Positions 26,243-48,346 of a DNA stretch of 56,056 nucleotides are shown here, piece after piece; position 1 is the stretch's first letter, and each line of letters opens with the position of its first letter. Source of the DNA: a virus (Duplodnaviria; Caudoviricetes). A program made the translations under genes and the position numbers. The notes under the pieces are model-generated. The model saw only the letters and a list, made by a program, of their open reading frames with translations, had not been told where the DNA came from and did not search any database. Where the stretch lies: positions 1 through 56,056 of IMG/VR virus record IMGVR_UViG_3300030117_003836; one strand, written 5' to 3'.

Positions 26243-29200
26243 ATGAGTTTGGAACGTGACATAGCTCTTTTTTTAGCTCAAGAAGAGAAACGTAAAACCC
26301 AATTAGGACAAATACCTGCCGATTCATCTACAGAAAGAATACTAGACCAAGGCAAAGAAAATCAACTTCCAGTAAAAAATTCAGTATACTCTAATGCTAT
26401 TATGAACTCTGTTGTAAATGCAGACAGAGGTCCTATGGCAGAATTTATAGGTGAAATGGCTTGGGGTTTTGCTGATGAATATACTTTAGGTGGTCTTGGT
26501 ATGGCTGAAGAATATGATTGGCTTGAAAGATCTACTGGTGCTAAACCTTTGCAGGAAGGCTTAGAAGGATTTAGAGATATAACCCAAGGTGGAAGAAAAG
26601 TAATCGACCCTGCAACAGGTGAATCTTATAGACCAGGACCTCAAAGTTTTATGGGTAAATTAGGTGGAGGTGTTGGTGTTGTAGGTGGTTTTATAGCAGG
26701 TGCTCCACAAAAAATACTTAAAATAGGTGGAAAAGCATTAACATGGACTACTGCATTAGCCACTCGTAAAAAAACATTTGCAAAAACTTTAAAACAAATA
26801 CAGAAATCTACAGAACCTCTTACTTCAGCTTCACCAGAGGCAGCAATATTTAATAATGTCTTACATGGTGCAACTGCTAGAGCTGTTATTACAGCAGCTA
26901 GACCTGGAAAATTAAATAACGTAGATAATTTTGCTCAACATATAAGTTCAGGTATTAAAGGAACTATTGATGATGCTGTAGAATCAGGTTTGTTAGATAG
27001 AAAAACTGCTGAATCATTAGGAGATGTTTATACTAAATATCTATCTGATAGACCTTTAACGTCTATGGTGGATTATTTTACAACTAATGCTACGAACTCT
27101 AGATTGGCTTATACTGTTGGTAGCATTATACAAGAAGGTTTACAATTTGGTATTTTAGATGGAATTAGAGCTGGTGTGCATGTAGGATTTGGTCTTGATG
27201 ATGAAATACACCATCATTATGATTTAATGGAACCTGTTTGGGGATTAGGTATTGGTGGAGCATTTGGTGCTTTAAAATGGATGAAACCTGCAGGTAAATC
27301 TGCATCTAGTAGAGTAGACTTTAAATCTGGTGTTAGAGCTGCTTTAGAGGATGGAAAAAACATATTAAAAACTGATGGATATGCTACCTTAAAAGCAAAA
27401 ACTGAGGCTATAGGGGCTGATGCAAAAATACTAGGTCAACATATTAAGCAAGTAAAAGTGGGTGAAAAAACATATTCTTTTGATTTAACAAGCGTAGAAA
27501 GTGAAGCTGTTAGAGTTTTAAGTGATGCTGGTAGAAAAATTAGTGACGAAGCTAAAGCTGATTTAGTTAGGGAAGTATTAGGTAAAACAGTTAATGATTA
27601 TGGAAAACAATTAATGAAATGGGCTTGGAAAGAAAACTGGGCAAATGTAGCAGAAAACTGGCCTAAGATGGTATTGGGTGCAGGTATTATGAATGCTAGG
27701 TTGTATTATGATATGTATCAAGGCCAACCTGTTGGAACAGATGATTTAATGGTAAATGTATTAATAGGTGCTTATTTAAATAGACGTGGAACACCAAGAA
27801 GGACAGACATGTTTCCAGAAACAGTTCAAAGATTAAGGTCTGGTTTACATACTTTAAATATATTGCCTAAAGAATATATAAAAACAAACCCTTTTAGACA
27901 GATGCCTACATTGGATCCTGCAAGAAGCAGTTCTATGAATCCTTTTGCATCTGATATAGAGTTAAATAAAATAGTACAAGCAGCTAAAGAATTAGGTTTA
28001 ACTACTAATAATTTTGATAAAATAGACCAACCAATAGAAATAGTTACAGAAACTCAACCAGGGACTGGATTTAAAACTATTGAATTTGCTACAGGATATG
28101 GCAAACGTTCAGTAAGTCAATCTGGAGAACCCTTACCATTGTTTCATGAATTTTATAGATTTTTAGAAGGTGCTACTACTGATAAATATGTTAGAAATTT
28201 AGATAATATACCAGAATCAGCAGCATTAAAAATAGAAGCTATGTTAAGAAAGAAATTTGATAATGAAGCTGATATGCGTACATATATGCGTAAAAGAGTT
28301 GATAATGCTGGAGATAGATTTGAAGCTGAAATAGTAGGTGCTACTGTTGATTTAATGAATATATTAGGAGTTCAAACAGGAGGTAAAGGAGAAGGAAGTA
28401 TTGGTAAAATACCTTCAGTTATTACAGTTAATGATGTAATTATGAAAGCTGCTGAAGCTGGTACTTTACATAATTATTTAGATTCTTTTAAAGGTGTTAA
28501 AAATCAAGCTGATGCATTAAGAGCATTATTGAAAAAAGCAAACATTATGACAAATACTTCATTTGAATTAATGAGAGCTAATAAAAAAGAAACAGACCAA
28601 GCATTTGTTATTAAAGATTTTGCTCAAATAGAAGCAATTAGAGAGTTAATTAAAACTAGAGAGATAGGCATTAACAATGAACTAGGAATTAAACCTGATG
28701 CTAGTAATGCATTTAAATTTGAAAACGCTTGGCAATTAACATCGTATTTAAAAAGTCGTTTAATGAATAGAAAGGCTAGTATCTTTTCTAGAATATTAGA
28801 TAGAAACTTAGACACAAATCAAGAAATGTTCCAAGTTTTATTAGATTCAGGGTTATTAAAAGCAGATGGATTAAACTTAGACCCTAGAAGAATATCAGAT
28901 ATATCTAAAATTAATATTGTTGATAATAATTTTGTTACTGTAAAAGATTCCAGATTAGTTAGTGATCATCAATTATTTTTAAGTTCTGTATTAGAAGTGC
29001 TAGGAGCAAAAGGGCAGTATAATGTACATGAAAACCCAGTTAATATTAGCTTAGGTCAAATACAAAGATTAAGAAATTATTTAAATAATAAAGGTGTCAA
29101 TACAGATGGTCCTTCTTTAGCAGCTTTTTCTACTGAAGTTGTAAGAAGAATTACATATCAAAACTTTAAAGATTCTAAATTAACTCAAGAAAACGTAGGG

Positions 29201-32200
29201 GTGTTTCAAGCATTTCATTCATTAGGTGGTGTTAATGCTCAAGATGGTAGTTTCCATATAATGAAATATGATAGAATATCAAAAGGAAAGCCTGTTGGTA
29301 TTGTAGCAAATAAAATAGCATATGAAGGTAGTGATGTAAGAATACAAGAAATAGTAAAAGAATACAATTCATATGTTGATTCTATGATTCGAAATGGTAA
29401 AATAGAAGGCAAGCAAGAAAACTTTGTAAAAGAAGGTAGTTTATATACAATTACTAATGAAAATACTTTTTTAACAATACAATCAATATTATATGATGCT
29501 ATACACAAAACTGCAGGTAGTGCAAGAAAAGAATTAATGGATTTTATGTTAGCTGATTTAAGCAAAAGTAAAGCAAGAGATGCTACATTAACCTTTATGT
29601 CTGCTTATCCTGAAAAAACGTCTAAATTAATCAAATTAATGATAAATAATGGCACTTTAGAGCTTAAAAAGAATGATGGAAGTTTAGAAGGTACTTATGA
29701 GTATTATGTTAACAAAGAAAAATTTAACCAAAAAGAGATACAAAGCAAGATATTAGAATTTATAGATAAACATGGTATCAATTTAGATACTTTAGAAACT
29801 ATGACTTCCAATGCTGAGAAACAATTAGAAACATATTTAGAGCAAAGATATGGAGTAGGCGATCATAAAGCTGGTATAACTGTAAATGATTTCTTTAAAA
29901 CTTATTTACCTGAAAAACCTTTAGACCCAACTAAAATGAGTGAATACCTTGTTGATAAACTTTATGATATAAATAATAACTTAAGAGATTTTACTGCTAT
30001 CAATGAAATATTAAATGAAATGAATATTCCTCGTGGTAAAGAACAACAAGCTTATCAGCATTTAATGCAAATTGTTTCTAATAAAGTTCAAGGAGTAACT
30101 AAAAAAGTTATTTATTGGTCTGATGGTCAAGTAAAAGTAAAAGATACAGATTTAGCATCATATAGAACTCCTTACTTTACAATGTTAGATAAAATAGGAT
30201 TAAAATATGCTTTAGTTGATGGTACTTCTCATGACTGGGTATTACATCCAGAAACAAATAAACTATTATATCAACCACTAGATATATTCCAAAACAATTC
30301 TACTATTATAGGTAAAGCAGACAGACAAATGATTCAACAGAGACGTGAATTATTTTTAGATATGCTTAATGGTAAAAAAGACATAGAAGGATTTGAATCA
30401 GGTATGACTTTTATAGAAATGCCTGGTTTAAAAATGTCTTTAGCTGTTAGTAAAGCTGATATAGATTTAGTTAGAACTGCATTTAATGAAATGTATACAA
30501 GGCAAATAGCAAATGCTCCTGAAAATAGTTTAGCTAAAAAGAAATTAGAGCATTATAAAAAAGCATTAGAACAATCGTTATCTATGGATGATTTTCATGT
30601 ACCAGAAGCAATTAAAATGTTAATAGCAGAATCTATGTTTGTTGGTAAAAATAAAAATAAACTTATAGATTATTTAGAAATGGGTCCTGGAGACCCTGAG
30701 TTAAACAAAATGTTTGTAGGTAGACAGAAATTGTTTAATACAATGAAATTTAAAAGAATAGATAAAGATTTAATTACAGCATTTCAAGAATCCAATATGT
30801 TTGAAAATGGTAGTCGTCAAGACATAGTATTAGAAAAGTATTTAACTAAAAATAAATTTGGTGTTGCTTTATACAATGATGGTTTAAATAGCTTTGATTT
30901 AAAAACTATGTTTGAAGCTGAAAATGGTAAAGGTTCATGGCAAAAATATTATGGTGAAAGAGCTAGAGAGTCTTCTCATGATAGTATTAGTTTTATATCA
31001 AGAGAAATGGCAGAGTTTTTAGGTTTAGCTTATGGAGCTCCTGGTTCTAAAGTTTTTAAACCAGTTATTAGTTCTCAAGGTAAAGGTAATTTATTATATG
31101 GTAAAACAGAATTTGTTTATGACCCTAAATTAGACAACTTTTTCAATAAGAATAAAGGCATTGATATATTGATGGCTTCATCTGCTGAAAAACTAAAATT
31201 ATATGAAGGAAAAGAGATACTTCAAGTAGAAAAACAAGATTTTTATAACATAGGAAAAGTAAGTGAGAAATTAATTATTGATATACCTTTAGAAGCAGTA
31301 GGAGTGCAAAAAATTCCTGATCATTTTACTCCAGGTAAACTAGCTCCAAGTGTTATGAATACTAATACTGATATAGATATAGCTCGTTCATTATATGCAG
31401 ATTATTTTGCAGACAATATAGCTATTGGTATGAAAAACATGTCTGAAATATTAAAAAATCCTTTTGTTGAATATGAATTAATGAGACGTATAAAAGAGGG
31501 ACAAAGCACAGGTAAATATGAAGATTTAGAATTGTTAGATAGTTATGATGCTGCTCAAAGCTTACAATTAGAATGGCTAAAAGTTAGTCCTTATGCGTCT
31601 ATAGATGTATTTGGTCCTAATGCTAAGATGAATCCATTAAAAGCTAGATTTTTAGATCAAGCTATGGCTCCTAGTACTGAATATTACCACAATAATAAAA
31701 GATATAGATTTGGTGCAAAATCAACGTTAATGCAAACAATGGATACTGCTCTTCAAGGGACATTATTTAACCCAGAAACAGGCAAAATAGAGCGTTATGG
31801 AGAGGTTATGTTGCCAGAAGCATTAGGAGCAGAAGATATTAATTTTGCAGCACGTAATTATAAGGTTAAAGTTATTAATAAAAAGACTAATGAGATTTCT
31901 GATGCAGAAGTTATTTTTAATAAATTTGGAGCTAACAAGTCTTTTTCATATAAAGATATAGCTAATAGTGCAAGACCATTAGAATCTTTATTTAATGTAT
32001 TTGAAAGAGGTGCTTTAAAAGATTATGATTTAGCTATATCTACAATGAGATTTCCTAGAACAAGACCTAATGATTTAACATTATTAAGATTAAGAGGATT
32101 TAAAAAAGGTTCTGGTAACGCAACAGAAGTCAATCCTTATGATGTTTACCATATATTTGAAGGAGATTATGATATTGATGCTGTAGACTTTACATGGGCT

Positions 32201-34867
32201 GGAAGTGATGCTTGGTATAGCAATATAAAAAGACAAAACAGAGTTTTTGTTCCTACTGCTGATGCAACTAAAACAAATGAAATACTACCAGAAATAGAAC
32301 TAGGTTCATTAAACCCATCAAAAGCATCAAGAGAATGGAGCACTTTAAATGGTAATCAAAGAGCTATGTCAGGAGCTAGAGGTTTAGTTCAAGCTACTTC
32401 AGCTTTAGTAAAACATGCTGATAATATTGCTGTTTCAAAGAAAAATGAAGATGGAAGTATAAGAAAAGTATTATTAAGAAATCCTAATAAAAAAGAAGGA
32501 GAAGTAGGTTATTGGGAAGTTGAAATGGATTGGAATAACGGTGATTTTCATTTGCGTCAAGCTTTAGAAGGTCAAATAATGCTAGATGCGTCTTCACCTG
32601 ATCCAAACCTGATCAACAAAGTTAAGGATTGGAGATATGAATTTTTATTCCCTGAATATAATCCAGACCCTATGCTAAATAAAACATTAGCAAAAGAAGA
32701 TTTTATTAGACCAGATGGAAGCTACAATACAACAAATTTAAGAAGTTTTATAAACGGTAAAAAAACAACTGCTAGTGAATATTCTAACCATAGAGTAAGA
32801 TTATTTAGAAGGTATGAATATGTAAATGAAAATGGAAACCTTGTTAAAAAAGAAGTTAGATTGCAAGAACTTGATATAGATTTAATAAAAGGCATATTTA
32901 ATGAATATTCTAAGTTACTAGAAGTATCGCCTGGAAGAAAAGTATACCAAAATGGTGGCAGTAAAAATGCTAACTATGAAGATATATTAATTAGAGGTCA
33001 AAGATATTTTTTAAATGCTAAGAATTTTAGAGGCAATATGTTTTATAAGATGAAAAATGCTAGAGAATATGATGATATTGCCAAACAAACTTATAACAAA
33101 TACACTAGAAGTGTTAATTCTTTATTAGGAAATCAATACATGGATTATTTTGGTCCAAAATCTTTTAGATATACAGATGCTAATAACAATGTTAAGTATG
33201 ATAAAACAAAGCAATATGCTACAAAATCACCGTTTCCAGAGCAATTAGAGCAAAATATGTTAGACAGGCACAATGGAACACAAGGAGGAGTAGTTGAAAG
33301 AATTATTAGAGAAATATACTCTCAAGATCCACTTAACAGCTTACATACTAATACTAAGTTTTTAACTAAAGATGCTTTTATAAAACAAGAAAATTTATCA
33401 AATCAATTATTGCATAACGATGCTATGGACATAGCAGAAATGAATAACTTTATTCCAGCATTATTAGGTAATATAAACAAAGATATATCTACTATAAATA
33501 GTTTAAAATATCAATGGGTAAAATTAAATAAAAGTTACTTTAAAGGTAAGAAAGCAAAACTAGAAGAATTAAATAAGAAAATTCAACAAATGGAAGAGAA
33601 ATTAAAACCATTATTGAATAAAGCATATTGGAAAAGCAGAAAAACAAAAGATATAGATAGATTTAGTTTAGTAGATATACAAAGTGATAAAAATATTATT
33701 GATGGAACTGTTCAGTTTTTCACTCTTGCGCATTTAGCCAGAGCTTTTCCTCATAATAAAAATAGTTTTGGATTTAAATCAGACTTAAAAGAACTTAGAG
33801 CTTTCTTAGGTTCTCAATATGCTGGACAAAGAGATCTTTGGGGTACAGGTGAATATGGAAATAGAAGCATATTTACTACAGAAACAAAAAGTAGATTAAC
33901 AGATGTTATGTCTACTAAGGATATAGAACTTAGAGCAGAAGATATGCTGCTTAGAGGTGTACAAAAACACGGAATATCATTTTTATGGGAATTTGCTATG
34001 CCTAGTGCTACAAGTACTGAAAATAAAATAGGTATATTTAACGGGAATGTTATGCCAGTGGCAATAAACCCTAGCGGTAACTATAAAAGAGCCGTAAAAT
34101 TCCTTTTAAAGGGCAAATCAGGGCAATTAGGAACACAGCCTGGTTTTTATAATAGAGATATGTTTAAAAGTGTATTAGAAGGATTAGCTGAAATAGATTT
34201 TACATGGAGAAGATTCTTTAATGGTCAAAATCAACATTTACCTTTAGATGCAATGGAAACTTCTAAACTTATTACTTATCAAATGCCTAAATGGTCTTGG
34301 AAAATGAACAATATGTTTAGTAAATATACTGATATTAAATCAGATAAAGAAATAAGCCCTTATAATCCATTTGGAATGGGCAAAAAATATGATATGAATA
34401 TTGCTTTCTTTAGGTCACTTTCCAATTTAGATAGATCAATTAACGGAGAAGCATTTGAAAGCGGTACTGCTATTTTATCTTATACTAATCAATTAATGAT
34501 GGAGAATGGATATTTAACTCCACAAAAACATTTAGCTTTAATGGCTGATATTTCTAATAGATTAGGACCTACAATGGAAAAAGTATTCCCAAGTACTGTA
34601 GATATACATACAGGCAATGTAACACCAATAAAACCTTTTGATATGTTAAACAATCCTATGTATGTTTTATTAGGTGGAAGCCACATGTCTGGCAGTGGAA
34701 TGAGCTTAGACCCTTATAGATCTTTAAATAAATATGAAAAATTAAGTATGAATAAAATGATACAGCAGGTAAAGGATATGAAGGATACAAAAAAAGATAG
34801 TTGGAGAGAATCATTCTTTGAAACAGATATTAGATTAGATATTAATAAAAAAGCGGAGGATTGCTAA
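26243..34867 (+). CDS. Giant virion protein; probable single-chain two-barrel (DPBB) RNA polymerase, crAss-type
   Basis: 2874 aa; R1936-F-P then EGDYDID (D1975-D1979, nt 32165-32179); upstream SHDSISFIS, FKPVI, YGKT, MASSAEK segments; N-terminal Gly-rich hydrophobic stretches. Confidence 0.75.
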   Translation: MSLERDIALFLAQEEKRKTQLGQIPADSSTERILDQGKENQLPVKNSVYSNAIMNSVVNADRGPMAEFIGEMAWGFADEYTLGGLGMAEEYDWLERSTGAKPLQEGLEGFRDITQGGRKVIDPATGESYRPGPQSFMGKLGGGVGVVGGFIAGAPQKILKIGGKALTWTTALATRKKTFAKTLKQIQKSTEPLTSASPEAAIFNNVLHGATARAVITAARPGKLNNVDNFAQHISSGIKGTIDDAVESGLLDRKTAESLGDVYTKYLSDRPLTSMVDYFTTNATNSRLAYTVGSIIQEGLQFGILDGIRAGVHVGFGLDDEIHHHYDLMEPVWGLGIGGAFGALKWMKPAGKSASSRVDFKSGVRAALEDGKNILKTDGYATLKAKTEAIGADAKILGQHIKQVKVGEKTYSFDLTSVESEAVRVLSDAGRKISDEAKADLVREVLGKTVNDYGKQLMKWAWKENWANVAENWPKMVLGAGIMNARLYYDMYQGQPVGTDDLMVNVLIGAYLNRRGTPRRTDMFPETVQRLRSGLHTLNILPKEYIKTNPFRQMPTLDPARSSSMNPFASDIELNKIVQAAKELGLTTNNFDKIDQPIEIVTETQPGTGFKTIEFATGYGKRSVSQSGEPLPLFHEFYRFLEGATTDKYVRNLDNIPESAALKIEAMLRKKFDNEADMRTYMRKRVDNAGDRFEAEIVGATVDLMNILGVQTGGKGEGSIGKIPSVITVNDVIMKAAEAGTLHNYLDSFKGVKNQADALRALLKKANIMTNTSFELMRANKKETDQAFVIKDFAQIEAIRELIKTREIGINNELGIKPDASNAFKFENAWQLTSYLKSRLMNRKASIFSRILDRNLDTNQEMFQVLLDSGLLKADGLNLDPRRISDISKINIVDNNFVTVKDSRLVSDHQLFLSSVLEVLGAKGQYNVHENPVNISLGQIQRLRNYLNNKGVNTDGPSLAAFSTEVVRRITYQNFKDSKLTQENVGVFQAFHSLGGVNAQDGSFHIMKYDRISKGKPVGIVANKIAYEGSDVRIQEIVKEYNSYVDSMIRNGKIEGKQENFVKEGSLYTITNENTFLTIQSILYDAIHKTAGSARKELMDFMLADLSKSKARDATLTFMSAYPEKTSKLIKLMINNGTLELKKNDGSLEGTYEYYVNKEKFNQKEIQSKILEFIDKHGINLDTLETMTSNAEKQLETYLEQRYGVGDHKAGITVNDFFKTYLPEKPLDPTKMSEYLVDKLYDINNNLRDFTAINEILNEMNIPRGKEQQAYQHLMQIVSNKVQGVTKKVIYWSDGQVKVKDTDLASYRTPYFTMLDKIGLKYALVDGTSHDWVLHPETNKLLYQPLDIFQNNSTIIGKADRQMIQQRRELFLDMLNGKKDIEGFESGMTFIEMPGLKMSLAVSKADIDLVRTAFNEMYTRQIANAPENSLAKKKLEHYKKALEQSLSMDDFHVPEAIKMLIAESMFVGKNKNKLIDYLEMGPGDPELNKMFVGRQKLFNTMKFKRIDKDLITAFQESNMFENGSRQDIVLEKYLTKNKFGVALYNDGLNSFDLKTMFEAENGKGSWQKYYGERARESSHDSISFISREMAEFLGLAYGAPGSKVFKPVISSQGKGNLLYGKTEFVYDPKLDNFFNKNKGIDILMASSAEKLKLYEGKEILQVEKQDFYNIGKVSEKLIIDIPLEAVGVQKIPDHFTPGKLAPSVMNTNTDIDIARSLYADYFADNIAIGMKNMSEILKNPFVEYELMRRIKEGQSTGKYEDLELLDSYDAAQSLQLEWLKVSPYASIDVFGPNAKMNPLKARFLDQAMAPSTEYYHNNKRYRFGAKSTLMQTMDTALQGTLFNPETGKIERYGEVMLPEALGAEDINFAARNYKVKVINKKTNEISDAEVIFNKFGANKSFSYKDIANSARPLESLFNVFERGALKDYDLAISTMRFPRTRPNDLTLLRLRGFKKGSGNATEVNPYDVYHIFEGDYDIDAVDFTWAGSDAWYSNIKRQNRVFVPTADATKTNEILPEIELGSLNPSKASREWSTLNGNQRAMSGARGLVQATSALVKHADNIAVSKKNEDGSIRKVLLRNPNKKEGEVGYWEVEMDWNNGDFHLRQALEGQIMLDASSPDPNLINKVKDWRYEFLFPEYNPDPMLNKTLAKEDFIRPDGSYNTTNLRSFINGKKTTASEYSNHRVRLFRRYEYVNENGNLVKKEVRLQELDIDLIKGIFNEYSKLLEVSPGRKVYQNGGSKNANYEDILIRGQRYFLNAKNFRGNMFYKMKNAREYDDIAKQTYNKYTRSVNSLLGNQYMDYFGPKSFRYTDANNNVKYDKTKQYATKSPFPEQLEQNMLDRHNGTQGGVVERIIREIYSQDPLNSLHTNTKFLTKDAFIKQENLSNQLLHNDAMDIAEMNNFIPALLGNINKDISTINSLKYQWVKLNKSYFKGKKAKLEELNKKIQQMEEKLKPLLNKAYWKSRKTKDIDRFSLVDIQSDKNIIDGTVQFFTLAHLARAFPHNKNSFGFKSDLKELRAFLGSQYAGQRDLWGTGEYGNRSIFTTETKSRLTDVMSTKDIELRAEDMLLRGVQKHGISFLWEFAMPSATSTENKIGIFNGNVMPVAINPSGNYKRAVKFLLKGKSGQLGTQPGFYNRDMFKSVLEGLAEIDFTWRRFFNGQNQHLPLDAMETSKLITYQMPKWSWKMNNMFSKYTDIKSDKEISPYNPFGMGKKYDMNIAFFRSLSNLDRSINGEAFESGTAILSYTNQLMMENGYLTPQKHLALMADISNRLGPTMEKVFPSTVDIHTGNVTPIKPFDMLNNPMYVLLGGSHMSGSGMSLDPYRSLNKYEKLSMNKMIQQVKDMKDTKKDSWRESFFETDIRLDINKKAEDC

Positions 34868-43123: not shown

Positions 43124-43786
43124 TTATTTAGCAAGTATCATTGTAGGAAAGTTGAATGAAAATTTCTTATCATAAGGCTGATTAGTTATTAACTTTCTCA
43201 CAGCATTACAGATAAAGCTACCACTCATATTACTACAATAACTTGTTGCTTTCATTGTACATGGCTCAGGATCAGAATCATGATCAGGATACCACGTAGT
43301 TAAGTATTGCCTTAATGTAGGTTTAGGCAATATATATTGTTGATAATGTTCTGCACCCATTCTGCCATCAATAATAGCAAATGGTTTTATTCTACTATTA
43401 GATATATGTGTCACTGCATCTAATCTAGATTGCATACTATCAAAACCAAGTATAATTATATCATTATGCTCAGTCATAGGACGATATTCATTTTGTTGTG
43501 GGAAATTACCAAAATATTTATCAACTGTTTTCTTACTTCCAGTGATATTTATAATATGATGATACAAACAATCTACTTTTCTTTTACCTACATCAGTCAT
43601 ATTATACTGACTAACACCTACATTTGGTTGCTCTACAACATCACCGTCATAAAGTGCAAAGTTTTCTGCTCCCATTCTCGCCAATTGTATGGCTGCGGAA
43701 CTTCCAATAGCTCCGCAACCAAGTATATGGTAAGAATAGTCGTTCATATTGTTAACTATATCACTGAATCTACTATTTCTTTCCAT
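43124..43786 (-). CDS. E1-like (ThiF/MoeB family) ubiquitin-like activating enzyme
   Basis: ILGCGAIGS, YDGDVVEQPNVGVSQY, DVGKRKVDCL, GFDSMQSR, IDGRMG, candidate catalytic Cys176 in EPCTMKAT. Confidence 0.92.
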   Translation of the reverse strand: MERNSRFSDIVNNMNDYSYHILGCGAIGSSAAIQLARMGAENFALYDGDVVEQPNVGVSQYNMTDVGKRKVDCLYHHIINITGSKKTVDKYFGNFPQQNEYRPMTEHNDIIILGFDSMQSRLDAVTHISNSRIKPFAIIDGRMGAEHYQQYILPKPTLRQYLTTWYPDHDSDPEPCTMKATSYCSNMSGSFICNAVRKLITNQPYDKKFSFNFPTMILAK

Positions 43787-43795
43787 GTCTCCTCC

Positions 43796-44722
43796 TTATA
43801 TTCCATATGATTGATTATACATTTCGTAATCTAACAAAGAATCTGTTGGATCACAATCTTCATACCCTATTTCACAAGTTATAAAATCACTAGGTTCTAA
43901 ATGTAAGATTTCTTCAAAATTACATTGAGCTATTAAATTAACAGTCAATGGCATTTTTGAATTTTCTAATCTTCTATTTAAATCCTTTATTTTATTTGCG
44001 TACTTAGGATATTGATACTCTCCCATTACAAATCCATCGTTTATTTTTTGTACTTTTTCTATTAATTGAATCCATGCATTAGTAATTGTATTCTTTTTCA
44101 TGGTTTCACCTCTAAATAAACTAGTTTGATTTGGGTTAGGAACTGTAAAGTTTTTCACAACTCCATTTTCTGTAACACTTTTCCACTGAGTACCAGAATT
44201 ATACCAACTCTTTTGAGGTTGAGTACATTGTGCTTCAACTTCTTTTGCTATTTTCTTTGGTATTTTATACCCTTCTTCATCTCCTACAATTTCAAGCTCT
44301 ACATCTTCATGCATTGTAAAAGGTTTCCATACAGATACTCTACACTTATATTCTTCTTTTACGTTGACTACTAGAGCAAAGCTCAAGTCGCCATCTTCAT
44401 ATTCATCTATAGTGTTTGTATCAGTACCACTCCAAAATGCATTCATTTTAGCATGAGAATGCCACCAACAAAAGCGAATATTATCTTTCTTATACTTCAT
44501 AGCTGCTTTACTATAATATTGTGCTAATTCAGTTTTATCTAATTCACATAATGCTGATGATACTTCTTGCTTCATTATTACAGGATCAATAATTTGCCAA
44601 TCACCATCTTCATCTTGTCTAGTAACTGCCATACCACCTATTTCTGTACCCCATTTATCTGACGCACATCTAGCATAGTTAATTATTTTATCCCAATCCT
44701 TCTGTTCTATATATACTTTCAT
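43796..44722 (-). CDS. JAB/MPN+ metallopeptidase (deubiquitinase-like)
   Basis: EIGG...WWHSHAKMNAFWSGTD fits the JAMM E-x(n)-HxH-x7-S-x2-D motif. Confidence 0.9.
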   Translation of the reverse strand: MKVYIEQKDWDKIINYARCASDKWGTEIGGMAVTRQDEDGDWQIIDPVIMKQEVSSALCELDKTELAQYYSKAAMKYKKDNIRFCWWHSHAKMNAFWSGTDTNTIDEYEDGDLSFALVVNVKEEYKCRVSVWKPFTMHEDVELEIVGDEEGYKIPKKIAKEVEAQCTQPQKSWYNSGTQWKSVTENGVVKNFTVPNPNQTSLFRGETMKKNTITNAWIQLIEKVQKINDGFVMGEYQYPKYANKIKDLNRRLENSKMPLTVNLIAQCNFEEILHLEPSDFITCEIGYEDCDPTDSLLDYEMYNQSYGI

Positions 44723-45993
44723 TATTGGTTCCTCCTTACCATTTGTAATGTAGCATGTTCTAATGCTTTTTGTTGTACCTCTTCAGGCGTTAGTTGTTTA
44801 GTTACACTTTTCCATGTATCGCAAGTTTCTTTTATTGTACAATACTTTATACAATAAGAATCTTCTTCTACATTTACTCCATCATTACTTAGCTGACGTA
44901 ATTCCGATCTATAATCGCAACGATTTGCATTTGTAGCCCCTTGAACATTAAAGAACTCTTCATTGTTTTCTAAGCAAGTTGGAATACCATGATATGTTTG
45001 AGTTATTCTATTCAAAGGCTGTGTATTAGTATCATAATGAGTCATTACTCTATCTATAAACAATTGCAATGATATAAAATCTAGTGATTGTATACATGCT
45101 TGAAACTCATCTTCCAAATTACCTACACACACATATTTAAAATTATAATGATGTTGATTACTATGATTATAGCTATTGTGATTTCTAGAAATATAAGGAT
45201 GTTCTATTCCCATATAACTATCCCAATTACCGCCAATAGTATAAGCACTATTTCTTGCATTGCTAGAAAATCTACTATTTCTTATATTCTTTATTTTAGT
45301 TAAATCATGTTTTGCCATAATAATACTATTTAATAGTTTGTTTAAAGAAAATCTAACAGAGATATAACCACGTCCAGGTATTTCTATCTCTGCTATTTCT
45401 TCATTACTATCAACATGCTTATATGATAGTTTGACATCTTGATAATTATATATAATATCTAGTTTATAATTACATAATTCATCATCATTATCAAATTCTT
45501 CATGTAAAGCCATTGTAAATTTATGATTAGAATTTTCATACTGTTCCATTAAATGATTATATAGTATATTCCAAGCTTCTATTACATCATCAGTATTGTC
45601 TTGCATTATTAAACCTTGTTGTCTAAAGTTTATTAATATATTTTCTATATTATATAATTCATTTTTAATACCTCTTAATCTCCAATTAGCATTATCTTGC
45701 ACTCGTTGTACAACTTTTTCTAATGAAGCTGCTTTTTTATGCATTTCACCTTGATACCATAGTATTTGTTTTATAGTATCATATGCACCTGGTTTCCAAT
45801 AAAACTTTTTAGTAATACCTAAGTTTTTAGTTGGTGCTTGTAAATAATAAGATCTATTTACGTGATTAGGTCCTTGAATATATTTATGATTAAATTCATC
45901 TATAAGTTCTAAAACTTCTGCCTGTGGACCTAATTGTACATTCTCTATCAAACGTGTTAAGTTTGGATTTAATTCGAATAAATTAGTTTGCAT
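44722..45993 (-). CDS. Probable E2-like ubiquitin-conjugating protein with long N-terminal extension
   Basis: EHPYIS...YVC289VGN followed by helices and YDTNTQPLN, echoing the E2 HPN...C motif; position between Ubl and JAB. Confidence 0.62.
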   Translation of the reverse strand: MQTNLFELNPNLTRLIENVQLGPQAEVLELIDEFNHKYIQGPNHVNRSYYLQAPTKNLGITKKFYWKPGAYDTIKQILWYQGEMHKKAASLEKVVQRVQDNANWRLRGIKNELYNIENILINFRQQGLIMQDNTDDVIEAWNILYNHLMEQYENSNHKFTMALHEEFDNDDELCNYKLDIIYNYQDVKLSYKHVDSNEEIAEIEIPGRGYISVRFSLNKLLNSIIMAKHDLTKIKNIRNSRFSSNARNSAYTIGGNWDSYMGIEHPYISRNHNSYNHSNQHHYNFKYVCVGNLEDEFQACIQSLDFISLQLFIDRVMTHYDTNTQPLNRITQTYHGIPTCLENNEEFFNVQGATNANRCDYRSELRQLSNDGVNVEEDSYCIKYCTIKETCDTWKSVTKQLTPEEVQQKALEHATLQMVRRNQ

Positions 45994-46014
45994 TTGTATC
46001 TCTCCTTATTTAAT

Positions 46015-46060
46015 AGATAGGGGGACTGTGAGTGTGAGGTGAGTTTCGCCCCCCGTATCT
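46015..46060 (-). promoter_or_regulatory. Hairpin between Ubl and E2 genes
   Basis: agataggggg / cccccgtatct stem; loop carries three CTCAC repeats on the - strand. Confidence 0.5.
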
Positions 46061-46072
46061 TGTTAGAACTAT

Positions 46073-46288
46073 TTACTGACAACCACCAGATTTATTATTC
46101 TGTACAGCTGCCACTACGGAACCATCAGTAAGCTCATGTGTATCCGCCACATTAGTACCATTTACTGCTATATCAGCATTAGAACTGATTTCTAATTCAG
46201 CTCTTAATTGAGCCACAGTTAATGATGTTACTTCTTTGTCAACGAATCCACCACCCGCTAACCATCTTATTGTTCTTGTGTTTGCCAT
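46073..46288 (-). CDS. Ubiquitin-like (beta-grasp) protein with C-terminal GG plus a 2-residue extension
   Basis: 71 aa; TVAQLRAEL...IAVNG...HELTDGSVVAAV...KSGG-CQ; SD AAGGAGG. Confidence 0.85.
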   Translation of the reverse strand: MANTRTIRWLAGGGFVDKEVTSLTVAQLRAELEISSNADIAVNGTNVADTHELTDGSVVAAVQNNKSGGCQ

Positions 46289-46987: not shown

Positions 46988-47295
46988 TTAAATTCACCCC
47001 CTTACAGATCATAGGTACACCAGGTAATGGCTCTACGCATTCTGTTTTATTTTTGTTAACATTGTCTTGTTCTTTGAGAATTATTATATCTGTTGGGTCA
47101 TTTACATTAACCAATAAATATAATGTGATTACTGTTGCTTTCATTTTGCCTCCACATCATTATCTTTTAGTATTATTTCAATTCTAGACATTATTCTATT
47201 GCCTAGCTCATCATTTTTTTGTGTAATAGCTATATATGTATATACATCTCTTAATATTGCTAATACATCTTTTACATTTCTAAAGTGTACACCCA

Positions 47296-47547
47296 TTATA
47301 ACTCTCCTTCCAATGCTTTTACTTTATCTACTGTTTCTTTTAAAGTATCTGCATTTAAATGTCCTACTACATCATCAGTTATAGGTGTATTATATGTTAT
47401 ATTATATGTTTTAACTTCTTTGGGCGCGTCCTTTTCATCATCCCAGGTGCCTTCCCATTCTAATACTGCTAACTCTAAGCCATAGCTATATTCACTACAT
47501 ATAATACTTACTCCATAACCATTCTTAAATAAACTTACATCTGCCAT
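47296..47547 (-). CDS. Phage hypothetical protein
   Basis: 83 aa; FKNGYGVSII...ELAVL...TPITDDVVGHL; RBS AAGGAG. Confidence 0.65.
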   Translation of the reverse strand: MADVSLFKNGYGVSIICSEYSYGLELAVLEWEGTWDDEKDAPKEVKTYNITYNTPITDDVVGHLNADTLKETVDKVKALEGEL

Positions 47548-47567
47548 TGTATTCTCCTTTTAATTGT

Positions 47568-48058
47568 ATGTGGCTGGTGAAGGATTTGAGATTACCTTCA
47601 AGATGATATTTCCCTATGGGCTTTTGACCTCACGACACATATAATAGCGACTGTCATCACTTTACTCATATTAAGCTGCGTGCACTTAATACATTGTAAA
47701 ATCTACTACAGAATATTATATCTTATACATCTCGGGAATACGAGTTAGATTCATAGTATAAGTTAATGCCGACATAAAATCTCTGCCTCTCGGCTTCTTT
47801 TTATGTTCTCGTTTACACCTACTTACATCCAGTGAGTTACCACCATATTACTGCCATTCAACAATAATATTAGACATCTCTTAGATGCAATACCTGTGTG
47901 CTTTTATGCAAAACACTTTCACAGGTTTACCATTTAACATAGCAAATTAATATCAGATGATCAGTCTAATATCTACTACTATGTACCACATGGGAGGGTC
48001 GCGTTTCACAGGGATGAACCTGTTACTTGACTTTATAAGCTTATGAAAGCTGACCCTC
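47568..48058 (-). ncRNA. Candidate large structured non-coding RNA
   Basis: No ORF; closing stem AUGUGGU/GCCACAU, about ten internal helices with minus-strand G-U pairs, GNRA loops; separate 5' domain 47994-48058. Confidence 0.65.
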
Positions 48059-48070
48059 AGTTCTTATTAA

Positions 48071-48346
48071 TTACTTAGGTTCTGGTAAAGAATTATCATA
48101 CAAATCTTCTTCTCTATCAGTTTTAACACCAAATATCCTTGTGCCACACCTTTTATGTAATGCATTAGTGTGTTTCTTAAGAATATATTCAGTATTTTCA
48201 GTTAATTCTTTAAGATCTTTAATCTTTACATCTTCATTACCTAATAATTTTAGGATAATGTCGCGCTGCTCTATAATAAATGCTATTAAGTGCATTGCTG
48301 TGTTACTTTGTAACATAGTTGTGTCCAACTTTATTTTATTATTCAT
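48071..48346 (-). CDS. Hypothetical early protein
   Basis: 91 aa. Confidence 0.55.
   Translation of the reverse strand: MNNKIKLDTTMLQSNTAMHLIAFIIEQRDIILKLLGNEDVKIKDLKELTENTEYILKKHTNALHKRCGTRIFGVKTDREEDLYDNSLPEPK

What the first reader, a model, noticed from the sequence alone, without database searches (positions are those of the whole stretch)
47568..47991. Candidate large ornate non-coding RNA on the early strand
Seen on the - strand: 424 nt with no ORF, closed by AUGUGGU/GCCACAU. Helices include ACAUAGUA/UGCUAUGU, AUAUUAGA-cugauca-UCUGAUAU (self-complementary UGAUCA loop, + 47958-64), ACCUGU/ACAGGU, AUAUUAUUGU/GCAGUAAUAU, ACAUAAAA/UUUUAUGU with GCC-GAGA-GGC, CUUAUAC/GUAUAAG, GUGAU-GACA-GUCGC and a final GAAGG/CCUUC. 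The last loop (AAUCUC) is complementary to an internal GAGAUU (+ 47778-83, partly in a stem), a possible pseudoknot. G-U pairs consistently favour this strand. Known: phages carry large ornate RNAs (ROOL, GOLLD) of unclear function that form multimers. Inference: a compact member or new relative of that class; the palindromic loop could drive kissing-loop oligomerisation.
Basis: partly seen in the sequence, partly recalled or inferred. Interest (0 to 1): 0.7.

Follow-up and report, generated by a model that had tools for sequence, protein, structure and literature searches.

The report
New ornate RNA of marine phages
This stretch encodes a real, intricately folded non-coding RNA of about 424 bases that matches no catalogued RNA family and sits where closely related phages carry the giant GOLLD RNA.

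Summary
Window 47568-47991 (- strand) is an ORF-free, closed RNA domain. It folds better than shuffles (z -3.64). I found homologues in 29 further distinct sequences (26 full-length ones aligned) from uncultured viral and marine metagenome contigs.

On 27 aligned sequences, my 146-pair model (28 helices) has 86.6% of cells paired, against 72.8% when shuffled and 36-47% when slid. 103 pairs change on both sides. G-U outnumbers A-C 461 to 87, which fixes the strand.

No Rfam 15 family matches, so it is not a GOLLD or ROOL member. Context points to the same kind of RNA, though:
- Related phages carry Rfam-confirmed GOLLD in the same early-region slot.
- The two RNAs excluded each other in all 10 records tested and interleave on a neighbour-gene tree.
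- Both lie beside tRNA-Met.

Metatranscriptome contigs from four studies cover the RNA.

Verdict: a new family of large ornate phage RNA, probably a functional stand-in for GOLLD. Its function and oligomeric state are untested.

The parts
47568..47991 (-). The whole structured RNA domain (424 nt), closed by helix P1
   Evidence: Homology in other contigs starts and stops at these ends. The 146-pair model is supported on 27 sequences. Fold z -3.64.
47985..47991 (-). P1 5' strand AUGUGGU; pairs with 47568-47574 (GCCACAU)
   Evidence: helix 1: 5 of 7 pairs change on both sides. Examples: ACAUUGGU/GCCAAUGU, AACUAUGGU/GCCAUAGUU, UUGCGGU/GCCGCAA.
47937..47984 (-). P2/P2a long hairpin; terminal loop CUGAUCA at 47958-47964 (palindrome GAUC)
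   Evidence: helices 2-3. Individual folds show a GAUC loop in 7 of 27 members and a GACG tetraloop with a covarying closing pair in 17 of 27.
47929..47932 (-). P3 5' strand UGGU; long-range helix with ACCA at 47575-47578
   Evidence: (helix 6): 98.1% paired. It covaries as UGAU/AUCA, UCAC/GUGA and UGUG/CACA.
47892..47926 (-). P4/P4a hairpin (ACCUGUG...CACAGGU); site of a ~55-nt insertion in four members
   Evidence: helices 7-8. The insertion is seen in L012, L125, L108 and L134.
47823..47890 (-). P5 domain: a stem bearing three hairpins (loops GAUG, UGAA, UAAC)
   Evidence: helices 9-13; helix 13 is 94.7% paired, with 4 of 5 pairs changing on both sides.
47816..47820 (-). P6 5' strand AGGUG; pairs with CAUCU at 47601-47605 and encloses the 3' domain
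   Evidence: helix 14: 96.3% paired, 4 of 5 pairs change on both sides. This replaces the register RNAalifold chose.
47772..47806 (-). P7 hairpin with a GNRA-capped tip (GCC-GAGA-GGC); its 3' internal loop is the pseudoknot strand GAGAUU (47778-47783)
   Evidence: helix 15 (95.5% paired). Tips are GAGA, GAAA or other variants across members.
47588..47593 (-). Pseudoknot PK1 3' strand AAUCUC, in the loop of the terminal hairpin; pairs with 47778-47783
   Evidence: helix 18: 93.7% paired, 2 pairs change on both sides. Recovered blind.
47633..47771 (-). P8 (CGGCAU/GUGUCG) enclosing P9, P10, P11 and P12; the P12 loop GACA (47652-47655) is invariant
   Evidence: helices 19-26 (helices 19 and 26 are 100% paired). 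Invariant columns are listed.
47734..47737 (-). Pseudoknot PK2 5' strand UCCC (loop of P9a); pairs with GGGA at 47611-47614
   Evidence: Found blind. helix 22: 94.4% paired, all 4 pairs change on both sides.
47579..47599 (-). P14 terminal hairpin GAAGG-UAAUCUCAAAU-CCUUC; the loop resembles the GOLLD terminal loop GUAAUCUCA
   Evidence: helix 28 (100% paired).
47994..48058 (-). Upstream 65-nt three-way stem-loop followed by CCA, abutting P1. It is tRNA-sized, with a CAU-containing loop and a UUCAUCC loop. It may be a processing signal; belonging to the RNA is uncertain.
   Evidence: Fold z -3.88. One whole RNA-library contig spans it together with the RNA (X13). ARAGORN and the Rfam tRNA models do not call it. 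Not found in other loci.

Best explanation
Window 47568-47991 (- strand) encodes a stand-alone non-coding RNA of about 424 nt. It founds a new family of large, ornate phage RNAs.

Shown: the RNA folds into a closed architecture of about 14 named helical elements (28 helix segments in the count), with two pseudoknots, a long-range helix and GNRA-type tips. It is conserved by covariation in an uncultured lineage of ~50-57 kb marine podovirus-like phages. It occurs once per genome, on the early-gene strand.

Inferred: it is transcribed within the early polycistronic transcript and released by processing. Release probably uses the tRNA-maturation enzymes that act on the tRNA-Met gene, or in this window the tRNA-sized stem-loop, lying next to it. 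It then acts in trans as a compact RNA particle. That particle would do the same job as GOLLD, the RNA that sister phages carry in the same slot. The job is most likely tied to tRNA-Met or translation during infection, and possibly depends on homo-oligomeric assembly, as shown for GOLLD and ROOL.

The biochemical activity itself is not known for any of these RNAs.
For: Structure:
- 27 distinct sequences, 146 pairs: 86.6% of cells paired against 72.8 +/- 0.4 shuffled (0 of 500 shuffles reach it) and 36-47% when slid.
- 103 pairs change on both sides, against 73.6 shuffled. Covariation score is 0.430, against 0.196 shuffled and 0.09-0.12 slid.
- A blind scan for covarying stacks recovered 13 stacks, including both pseudoknots.
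- Strand: G-U 461 against A-C 87.

Not a known family: 0 Rfam matches in the window at gathering score, and only noise at E <= 10.

Stand-alone rather than a leader:
- P1 closes the domain.
- The immediately flanking ORFs belong to no shared family across 14 loci.
- In three loci (L101, L111, L102) a tRNA gene lies ~350-430 nt downstream.

Same niche as GOLLD:
- GOLLD RF02032 was found in 4 of 20 related loci, upstream of the same 175-aa gene and on the same strand.
- GOLLD is in 5 of 5 further whole records, 3 above the cut-off.
- A marine-GOLLD HMM finds it in 16 of the 80 loci L008-L087.

Mutual exclusion: GOLLD is in 0 of 5 records that hold this RNA, and model R1 is in 0 of 5 GOLLD records. 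Each positive control gave 5 of 5, one copy each.

Interleaving on the neighbour-gene tree:
- The smallest well-supported clade with the window (96/94) holds 4 rows with this RNA, 1 GOLLD, 2 neither and 1 too short.
- L136 (this RNA) is sister to L044 (GOLLD) at 97/88.

tRNA link:
- ARAGORN finds a tRNA in 8 of 26 member loci. All are tRNA-Met(CAT) on the RNA's strand.
- L092 and L094 add a tRNA found by Rfam only.
- The marine GOLLD whose structure was solved was itself found downstream of a Met-tRNA (PMC12286853, section 7, read).

Expression:
- Contigs of four RNA libraries from four studies lie on the RNA.
- One whole 482-nt contig equals 47571-48052.
- Pieces from three studies stop at 47571-47578, next to the P1 3' end. 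This is a weak hint only.
Against: - No function is shown for GOLLD or ROOL either, so 'does the same job' is an inference from position, exclusion and shared neighbours, not from any assay.
- The window itself has no tRNA gene, and its upstream stem-loop is not recognised as a tRNA.
- 42 of the 69 tree rows have neither RNA within the upstream sequence held. The slot can therefore be empty or hold something else, which weakens the idea of an indispensable shared function.
- The tree rests on one neighbouring gene in mosaic genomes.
- The RNA-library evidence comes from assembled contigs. These cannot show strand, ends or level, and DNA carry-over is not excluded.
- The sequences are related (effective number 2.3-8.9), and the model was derived partly from the window. 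That inflates the paired-cell measure relative to the slid controls.
- The palindromic loop is not family-wide.
Confidence: 0.6

Rival explanations
1. It is a true but highly diverged and miniaturised GOLLD, homologous to part of the GOLLD 3' domain, rather than an independent family.
For: It occupies the same genomic slot and has the same tRNA-Met neighbour. Its terminal hairpin loop UAAUCUCAAAU nearly matches the GOLLD terminal loop GUAAUCUCA, which is also the last hairpin of that RNA. In GOLLD that loop (L27) is a tertiary hub (PMC12286853, section 7).
Against: The GOLLD covariance model gives no match even at E <= 10 on a 1-kb search. nhmmer with the family HMM against four marine GOLLDs gives only negative bit scores, and the reverse search gives nothing. 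The order of helices and both pseudoknot topologies differ from the Rfam consensus. There is no variable 5' domain. The shared motif is 8 nt long, and in this family it covaries away (AAUAAC, AAUCCC), so it is not a fixed signature.
Confidence: 0.1
2. It is the RNA subunit or scaffold of a ribonucleoprotein, or a ribozyme with its own catalytic activity (for example acting on the neighbouring tRNA), rather than an RNA-only particle of the GOLLD type.
For: It has strictly conserved unpaired stretches (GACA loop, UCGUGAGG, CAAA in the terminal loop), two pseudoknots and GNRA tips. These are typical of ribozyme cores (established knowledge). It lies beside tRNA-Met.
Against: No conserved protein gene flanks it. 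No Rfam ribozyme, RNase P, tmRNA or intron model matches. Nothing here tests catalysis.
Confidence: 0.15
3. It is a giant cis-acting 5' leader (riboswitch-like) controlling the ORF that starts 20 nt downstream (47296-47547).
For: In the window, L012, L085 and L101 a ribosome-binding site and ATG follow the RNA closely.
Against: The downstream ORF is not conserved among 14 loci. In L101, L111 and L102 a tRNA gene lies ~350-430 nt downstream. P1 closes the fold without touching the ribosome-binding site. No terminator-like site is present.
Confidence: 0.05
4. It is a self-splicing intron or another mobile RNA element.
For: It is distributed sporadically among close relatives, is large, and has pseudoknots.
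Against: The flanks are separate ORFs: the upstream one has its own stop and the downstream one its own start. No Rfam intron model matches. No endonuclease or reverse-transcriptase gene lies inside or beside it. Flanking sequence is not conserved between loci.
Confidence: 0.03

Closest known systems
GOLLD RNA (Rfam RF02032)
   Same: Both are phage-encoded, large, ORF-free RNAs with many helices and pseudoknots. Both lie beside tRNA-Met or tRNA genes. Both sit in the same early-region slot of the same phage lineage, and they replace each other. The last hairpin loop is nearly identical (UAAUCUCA).
   Different: This RNA is about half the size (424 nt against more than 800). It is a single closed domain with no variable 5' domain. 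Its helix order and pseudoknots differ. It has no covariance-model or HMM similarity to GOLLD. The 14-mer cage shown for GOLLD (PMC12286853) is untested here.
ROOL RNA (Rfam family; accession recalled, not seen in a call)
   Same: ROOL is the same kind of object: a phage or prophage RNA near tRNA islands, multi-pseudoknotted, of unknown function, forming an RNA-only octamer (PMC12286853, section 6, read).
   Different: No Rfam match. ROOL was not found in any related locus scanned. ROOL is ~580-660 nt and its described source is rumen or Lactobacillales, not marine.
phi29 pRNA (recalled; cited in PMC12286853 section 8 as a natural RNA multimer)
   Same: It is a phage-encoded RNA on the early strand that oligomerises through loop-loop pairing. 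The palindromic GAUC loop of the window's subgroup could act likewise.
   Different: pRNA is ~120-174 nt and belongs to the packaging motor of small phi29-like phages. There is no sequence or structure relation. The GAUC loop is present in only 7 of 27 members.

Membership tests
GOLLD (RF02032) | Match to the Rfam covariance model at or above the gathering score (150 bits) | tested here: not met
   0 matches in the window at gathering score. No GOLLD hit at E <= 10 on 47300-48300. 0 of 5 records bearing this RNA match, while 5 of 5 control records do.
GOLLD (RF02032) | Conserved 3' domain architecture (long hairpin, variable linker, 10-bp pseudoknot, P24-P27 arrangement) plus a variable 5' domain, more than 800 nt in all | tested here: not met
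   Compared the Rfam consensus structure line with the covariation-supported model. The helix order and pseudoknots differ, and the RNA is 424 nt closed by P1.
GOLLD (RF02032) | Phage or prophage location near tRNA genes | tested here: met
   The window is a virus record. tRNA-Met lies on the same strand in 8 of 26 member loci by ARAGORN, plus 2 by Rfam only. The window itself has no tRNA.
GOLLD (RF02032) | Terminal hairpin with loop GUAAUCUCA (L27) | tested here: inconclusive
   Most members have UAAUCUCAAAU in the terminal loop. However, the motif is short, and here it covaries with its pseudoknot partner (helix 18).
GOLLD / ROOL | RNA-only homo-oligomeric nanocage | not testable with these tools
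   Needs mass photometry, SEC or cryo-EM of the transcript.
ROOL | Match to the Rfam covariance model | tested here: not met
   No match (window), or (38 related loci).
Group I / group II introns | Match to intron models, and interruption of a reading frame that is continuous after removal | tested here: not met
   No Rfam match. The upstream ORF ends with its own stop at 48071, and the downstream ORF has its own ribosome-binding site and ATG at 47547.
tmRNA / RNase P RNA / tRNA | Match to Rfam or ARAGORN models | tested here: not met
Riboswitch or gene-specific leader | Conserved association with one downstream gene family | tested here: not met
   Immediately downstream ORFs fall in no shared cluster across 14 loci.

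The most novel reading that the evidence does not exclude
This is a third, compact class of self-assembling phage RNA particle, after GOLLD and ROOL. It has an unrelated fold but is functionally interchangeable with GOLLD within one phage lineage. Evolution would then have reached the same function at least twice next to tRNA-Met. The swap would give a natural experiment, and a ~424-nt RNA small enough for structure work, to find out what these RNAs do, for instance caging or handling initiator-like tRNA-Met or ribosomes early in infection.
Probability: 0.3. Interest if true: 0.9.

Novelty: new variant of a known kind. Interest (0 to 1): 0.78.

Why it matters
GOLLD and ROOL are among the largest bacterial and phage RNAs with no known function. 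Their cage-like assemblies were solved only recently, and no assay for their role exists (PMC12286853, sections 6-9).

A new, half-sized family that replaces GOLLD in sister phages narrows the search to what the two RNAs share. They share the slot in the early region, the tRNA-Met neighbour, a mini tmRNA-like element in several loci, and a terminal loop motif.

The new RNA also offers a smaller target for cryo-EM and probing. In addition, it shows that uncultured marine podovirus-like phages hold unexplored structured RNAs in their early regions.

Tried and rejected
- **Earlier findings:** the tool was not open (one search was an argument error).
- **Cultured phages:** blastn of the gap found nothing. 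tblastn of the primase-helicase and the capsid protein found nothing. No cultured relative or host could be named.
- **Rfam hits at E 3-6** (GibS, HOTAIRM1_5, GlsR9) lie far below their cut-offs. I took them as noise.
- **Unconfirmed pattern hits:**
  - L097 and L098 (2 of 15 viral loci).
  - 9 of 33 metagenome loci, including one gut-labelled contig.
  - 4 of 5 genome loci.
  - L141.
  - All were dropped from every count.
  - Truncated L088, L103 and L123, and exact duplicates, were left out of A3.
  - L142-L144 were found after A3 was made and are not in it.
- **RNAalifold on the 27-sequence MAFFT alignment** lost the 5' helices through misalignment. I used a model carried over from the 3-sequence fold, edited by hand (the first two scripts stopped on pair conflicts).
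- **Rejected pairings:**
  - RNAalifold's AGGUGU/AUAUCA register, replaced by AGGUG/CAUCU.
  - GCAUAAAA of the P4a loop with UUUUAUGU: 6-8 of 27 cells are broken in four of its eight pairs, against 95.5% paired for the local P7.
- **Homology to GOLLD by HMM:** none.
- **Upstream stem-loop as a tRNA:** ARAGORN and Rfam are negative. Alignment to the relatives' tRNA-Met is poor.
- **Promoter and terminator scan:** 4 promoter-like sites against 7.3 expected, and 0 terminators.
- **Family-wide palindromic kissing loop:** not found.
- **RNA-library contigs off the RNA:** none lay on 47200-47547, and only one shallow contig lay on 48086-48236. No DNA run was laid.
- **One Rfam call exceeded the size limit** and was resent smaller.
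- **Literature:**
  - Searches found no paper describing this family in the held library.
  - Terms used: GOLLD, ROOL, cryo-EM, phage, tRNA, new class, ornate, structured RNA, covariation, metagenom.
  - One search was an argument error.
  - Supplementary alignments of PMC12286853 could not be seen and might include GOLLD variants relevant to the homology question.

Full report
**What is there**

The window is a complete-looking 56-kb virus record with about 31% G+C. It has a - strand block of small early genes between about 38 and 50 kb.

The finding lies in an ORF-free gap, 47548-48070. The gap sits between a 91-aa ORF (48071-48346) and an 83-aa ORF (47296-47547, PHROG 4074, unknown function).

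- The whole gap gives z -3.93 on the - strand and -2.18 on the + strand.
- No Rfam 15 family matches the window at gathering score.
- A permissive scan of 47300-48300 gives only three hits at E 3-6, far below their cut-offs.
- ARAGORN finds no tRNA or tmRNA.

**Homologues**

Loci around relatives of the neighbouring 175-aa gene (571 relatives, best 80 kept) gave three homologues of the RNA: L012, L013 and L085.

I built a pattern from the constant spacing of three motifs in the 3' domain. Hits were checked with nhmmer:

| Collection | Loci hit | Confirmed |
|---|---|---|
| Viral contigs | 15 | 13 |
| Metagenome contigs | 33 | 24 |
| Genome contigs | 5 | 1 |

- The single genome-contig hit is L136. 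It is identical to L085 and is probably a phage contig binned into a MAG.
- After removing duplicates there are 29 further distinct sequences: 26 full-length and 3 cut by contig ends.
- A second pattern added three more, L142-L144, confirmed by model R1.
- The four RNA runs laid and the best DNA holders are labelled marine or seawater metagenomes.

**Structure**

Three sequences alone gave 119 predicted pairs, 41 of them with compensatory changes. For 27 sequences (alignment A3) I carried that model over, corrected one register, and added helices seen in the alignment.

On A3 the 146 pairs in 28 helices compare with the controls as follows:

| Measure | Model | Shuffled | Partners slid 1-3 columns |
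|---|---|---|---|
| Cells paired | 86.6% | 72.8 +/- 0.4% (0 of 500 reach it) | 36-47% |
| Pairs changing on both sides | 103 | 73.6 | 44-58 |
| Covariation score | 0.430 | 0.196 | 0.09-0.12 |

A scan that knew nothing of the model recovered 13 covarying stacks. Among them:
- a second pseudoknot UCCC/GGGA, between the P9a loop and a 3' single strand;
- a long-range helix UGGU/ACCA.

G-U cells outnumber A-C cells 461 to 87, so the RNA is read from the window's - strand.

Caveats:
- The sequences are related (effective number 2.3 to 8.9).
- The alignment is by MAFFT and is imperfect in the 5' arm.
- The model derives partly from the window.
- R-scape was not available.

**Anatomy**

P1 closes the molecule.

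- The 5' part comprises a long P2 hairpin, then P3, P4 and a three-hairpin P5 domain.
- P6 encloses the 3' domain.
- Inside it, P7 carries a GNRA-capped tip and the PK1 strand.
- P8 encloses P9, P10, P11 and P12.
- P13 and the terminal hairpin P14 complete the 3' domain.
- The strictly conserved unpaired letters are the GACA loop of P12, UCGUGAGG after P8, and CAAA in the P14 loop.
- Insertions sit at the hairpin tips of P4, P5b and P10a in some members.
- The P2a loop comes in two forms. A GAUC palindrome occurs in 7 of 27 members, including the window. A GACG tetraloop with a covarying closing pair occurs in 17 of 27.

**Context**

The RNA always lies on the strand of the surrounding small early ORFs. 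It lies upstream of a conserved set of genes: the 175-aa gene, a 71-aa gene, a 423-590-aa gene and a ~310-aa gene. The ORFs directly beside it are not conserved. No promoter-like or terminator-like signal stands out.

tRNA genes:
- In 8 of 26 member loci ARAGORN finds one tRNA. It is always tRNA-Met(CAT), always on the RNA's strand, and lies from about 10 nt (L114) to about 1.7 kb away.
- Rfam adds a tRNA about 70 nt upstream in L092 and L094.
- Many loci are only 1-2 kb long, so these counts are lower bounds.

In the window itself a 65-nt three-way stem-loop followed by CCA abuts P1 (z -3.88). tRNA models do not recognise it.

**The link to GOLLD**

- An Rfam scan of 20 related loci that lack this RNA found GOLLD (155-171 bits, cut-off 150) in 4 of them. 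It lies on the same strand and upstream of the same 175-aa gene. tRNA-Met and ~80-nt tmRNA-like elements are nearby.
- An HMM built from those four marine GOLLD 3' domains finds GOLLD in 16 of the 80 loci L008-L087.
- In whole records, GOLLD is in 0 of 5 that carry this RNA and in 5 of 5 controls. The 3'-domain model R1 is in 0 of 5 GOLLD records and in 5 of 5 controls. Each is present as a single copy.

A maximum-likelihood tree of the 175-aa protein used 69 distinct rows from 85 loci, with duplicates dropped:
- The smallest well-supported clade around the window (96/94) holds 4 rows with this RNA, 1 with GOLLD, 2 with neither and 1 too short to judge.
- L136 (this RNA) is sister to L044 (GOLLD) at 97/88.
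- Well-supported branches force at least 3 changes of this RNA's label and 9 of GOLLD's.

The solved marine GOLLD was itself found downstream of a Met-tRNA (PMC12286853, section 7).

The two RNAs are nevertheless not demonstrably homologous:
- There is no covariance-model hit and no HMM similarity.
- The helix order differs.
- The one shared feature is the last hairpin loop: UAAUCUCA here, GUAAUCUCA in GOLLD. It is too short to decide the question.

**Expression**

Six runs on record as RNA hold part of the 1.2-kb stretch. I laid four of them, from four studies:
- All four have contigs on the RNA.
- One whole 482-nt contig (about 94% identical) equals 47571-48052. That is the RNA plus the upstream stem-loop.
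- Pieces from three studies end at 47571-47578, beside the P1 3' end (47568). One of them runs straight into adapter letters.

These are assembled contigs, so strand, level and exact ends are not shown, and DNA carry-over cannot be ruled out. I count this as moderate support for a stable RNA.

**Interpretation**

- Near-certain: this is a genuine structured RNA of a family not in Rfam 15. No paper describing it turned up in my four searches of the held library.
- Best-supported reading (about 0.6): a stand-alone RNA of the GOLLD/ROOL kind that substitutes for GOLLD in this phage lineage.
- Inferred only: release by tRNA-processing enzymes, and a role tied to tRNA-Met or translation. GOLLD and ROOL functions are themselves unknown. 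The authors suggest cages that might hold tRNAs or ribosomes (PMC12286853, section 9; passages of PMC12990946).
- Open (about 0.3): homo-oligomerisation.

Rivals, in order of weight:
- a ribozyme or ribonucleoprotein scaffold (0.15);
- a diverged true GOLLD (0.1);
- a cis-acting leader (0.05);
- an intron or mobile element (0.03).

**Papers**

- PMC12286853: I read the outline and sections 6-9.
- PMC12990946: I saw passages from a term search only.
- All other papers: search listings only.
- Supplements were closed.

Noticed in passing
window 47994-48058 (-): A stable 65-nt three-way stem-loop (z -3.88) directly upstream of the RNA. It has a 7-bp end stem followed by CCA, a loop containing CAU, and a UUCAUCC loop. 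It is tRNA-sized, but ARAGORN and Rfam do not call it, and it is absent from the other loci. It may be a decayed tRNA-Met or a processing signal.
   Followed up: partly
window 43124-46288 (-): Downstream operon resembling a ubiquitin-like conjugation set. It comprises a 71-aa ORF with GG near its C-terminus (my reading; no family hit), a 423-aa ORF of no family, a 308-aa ORF with a weak JAB hit (E 2e-4, below cut-off), and a 220-aa ThiF/E1-like ORF (E 5e-16). An ERF recombinase and a primase-helicase follow. The first three recur in related loci.
   Followed up: no
L102:2990-3071, L093:7688-7768, L025:2459-2540, L016:967-1047, L027:2938-3018: About 80-nt elements that match the Rfam tmRNA model end to end with the middle deleted (51-65 bits, cut-off 47). 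They resemble a bare tRNA-like domain. They lie next to tRNA-Met, and next to either GOLLD or this RNA.
   Followed up: partly
L028:2956-3134, L030:3366-3554, L029:3227-3312: A ~260-nt ORF-free element in the same slot of other relatives. It hits model R1 weakly (20-22 bits, E ~1e-4 on 21 kb) and shares a terminal hairpin GCGGGUAACCCAAAUCCCGC. It may be a distant cousin. Only three near-identical copies were held, so covariation could not be tested.
   Followed up: partly
L008-L087, upstream 4 kb: 120 + strand ORF-free stretches of 250 nt or more fall into 19 similarity clusters plus 34 singletons. One cluster is GOLLD and one has 21 members of unknown nature. The early regions of this phage lineage seem rich in conserved non-coding sequence. 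Opposite-strand genes were not excluded.
   Followed up: no
window 26243-34867 (+): A 2874-aa ORF, followed by a 904-aa ORF, with no Pfam or PHROG match, in the structural module. The capsid is SU10-like and the portal P22-like.
   Followed up: no
L136 (genome contigs): A 47-kb contig filed in a Dehalococcoidia MAG carries a copy of the RNA identical to that of viral contig L085. It is probably a phage contig binned by mistake, so it gives no host evidence.
   Followed up: no
L012:1570-1638 and the other tRNA-Met genes (alignment A7): The phage tRNA-Met genes share an acceptor end ...CCGCAAC that resembles bacterial initiator tRNA. That resemblance is recalled, not tested. They lack an encoded CCA.
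   Followed up: no
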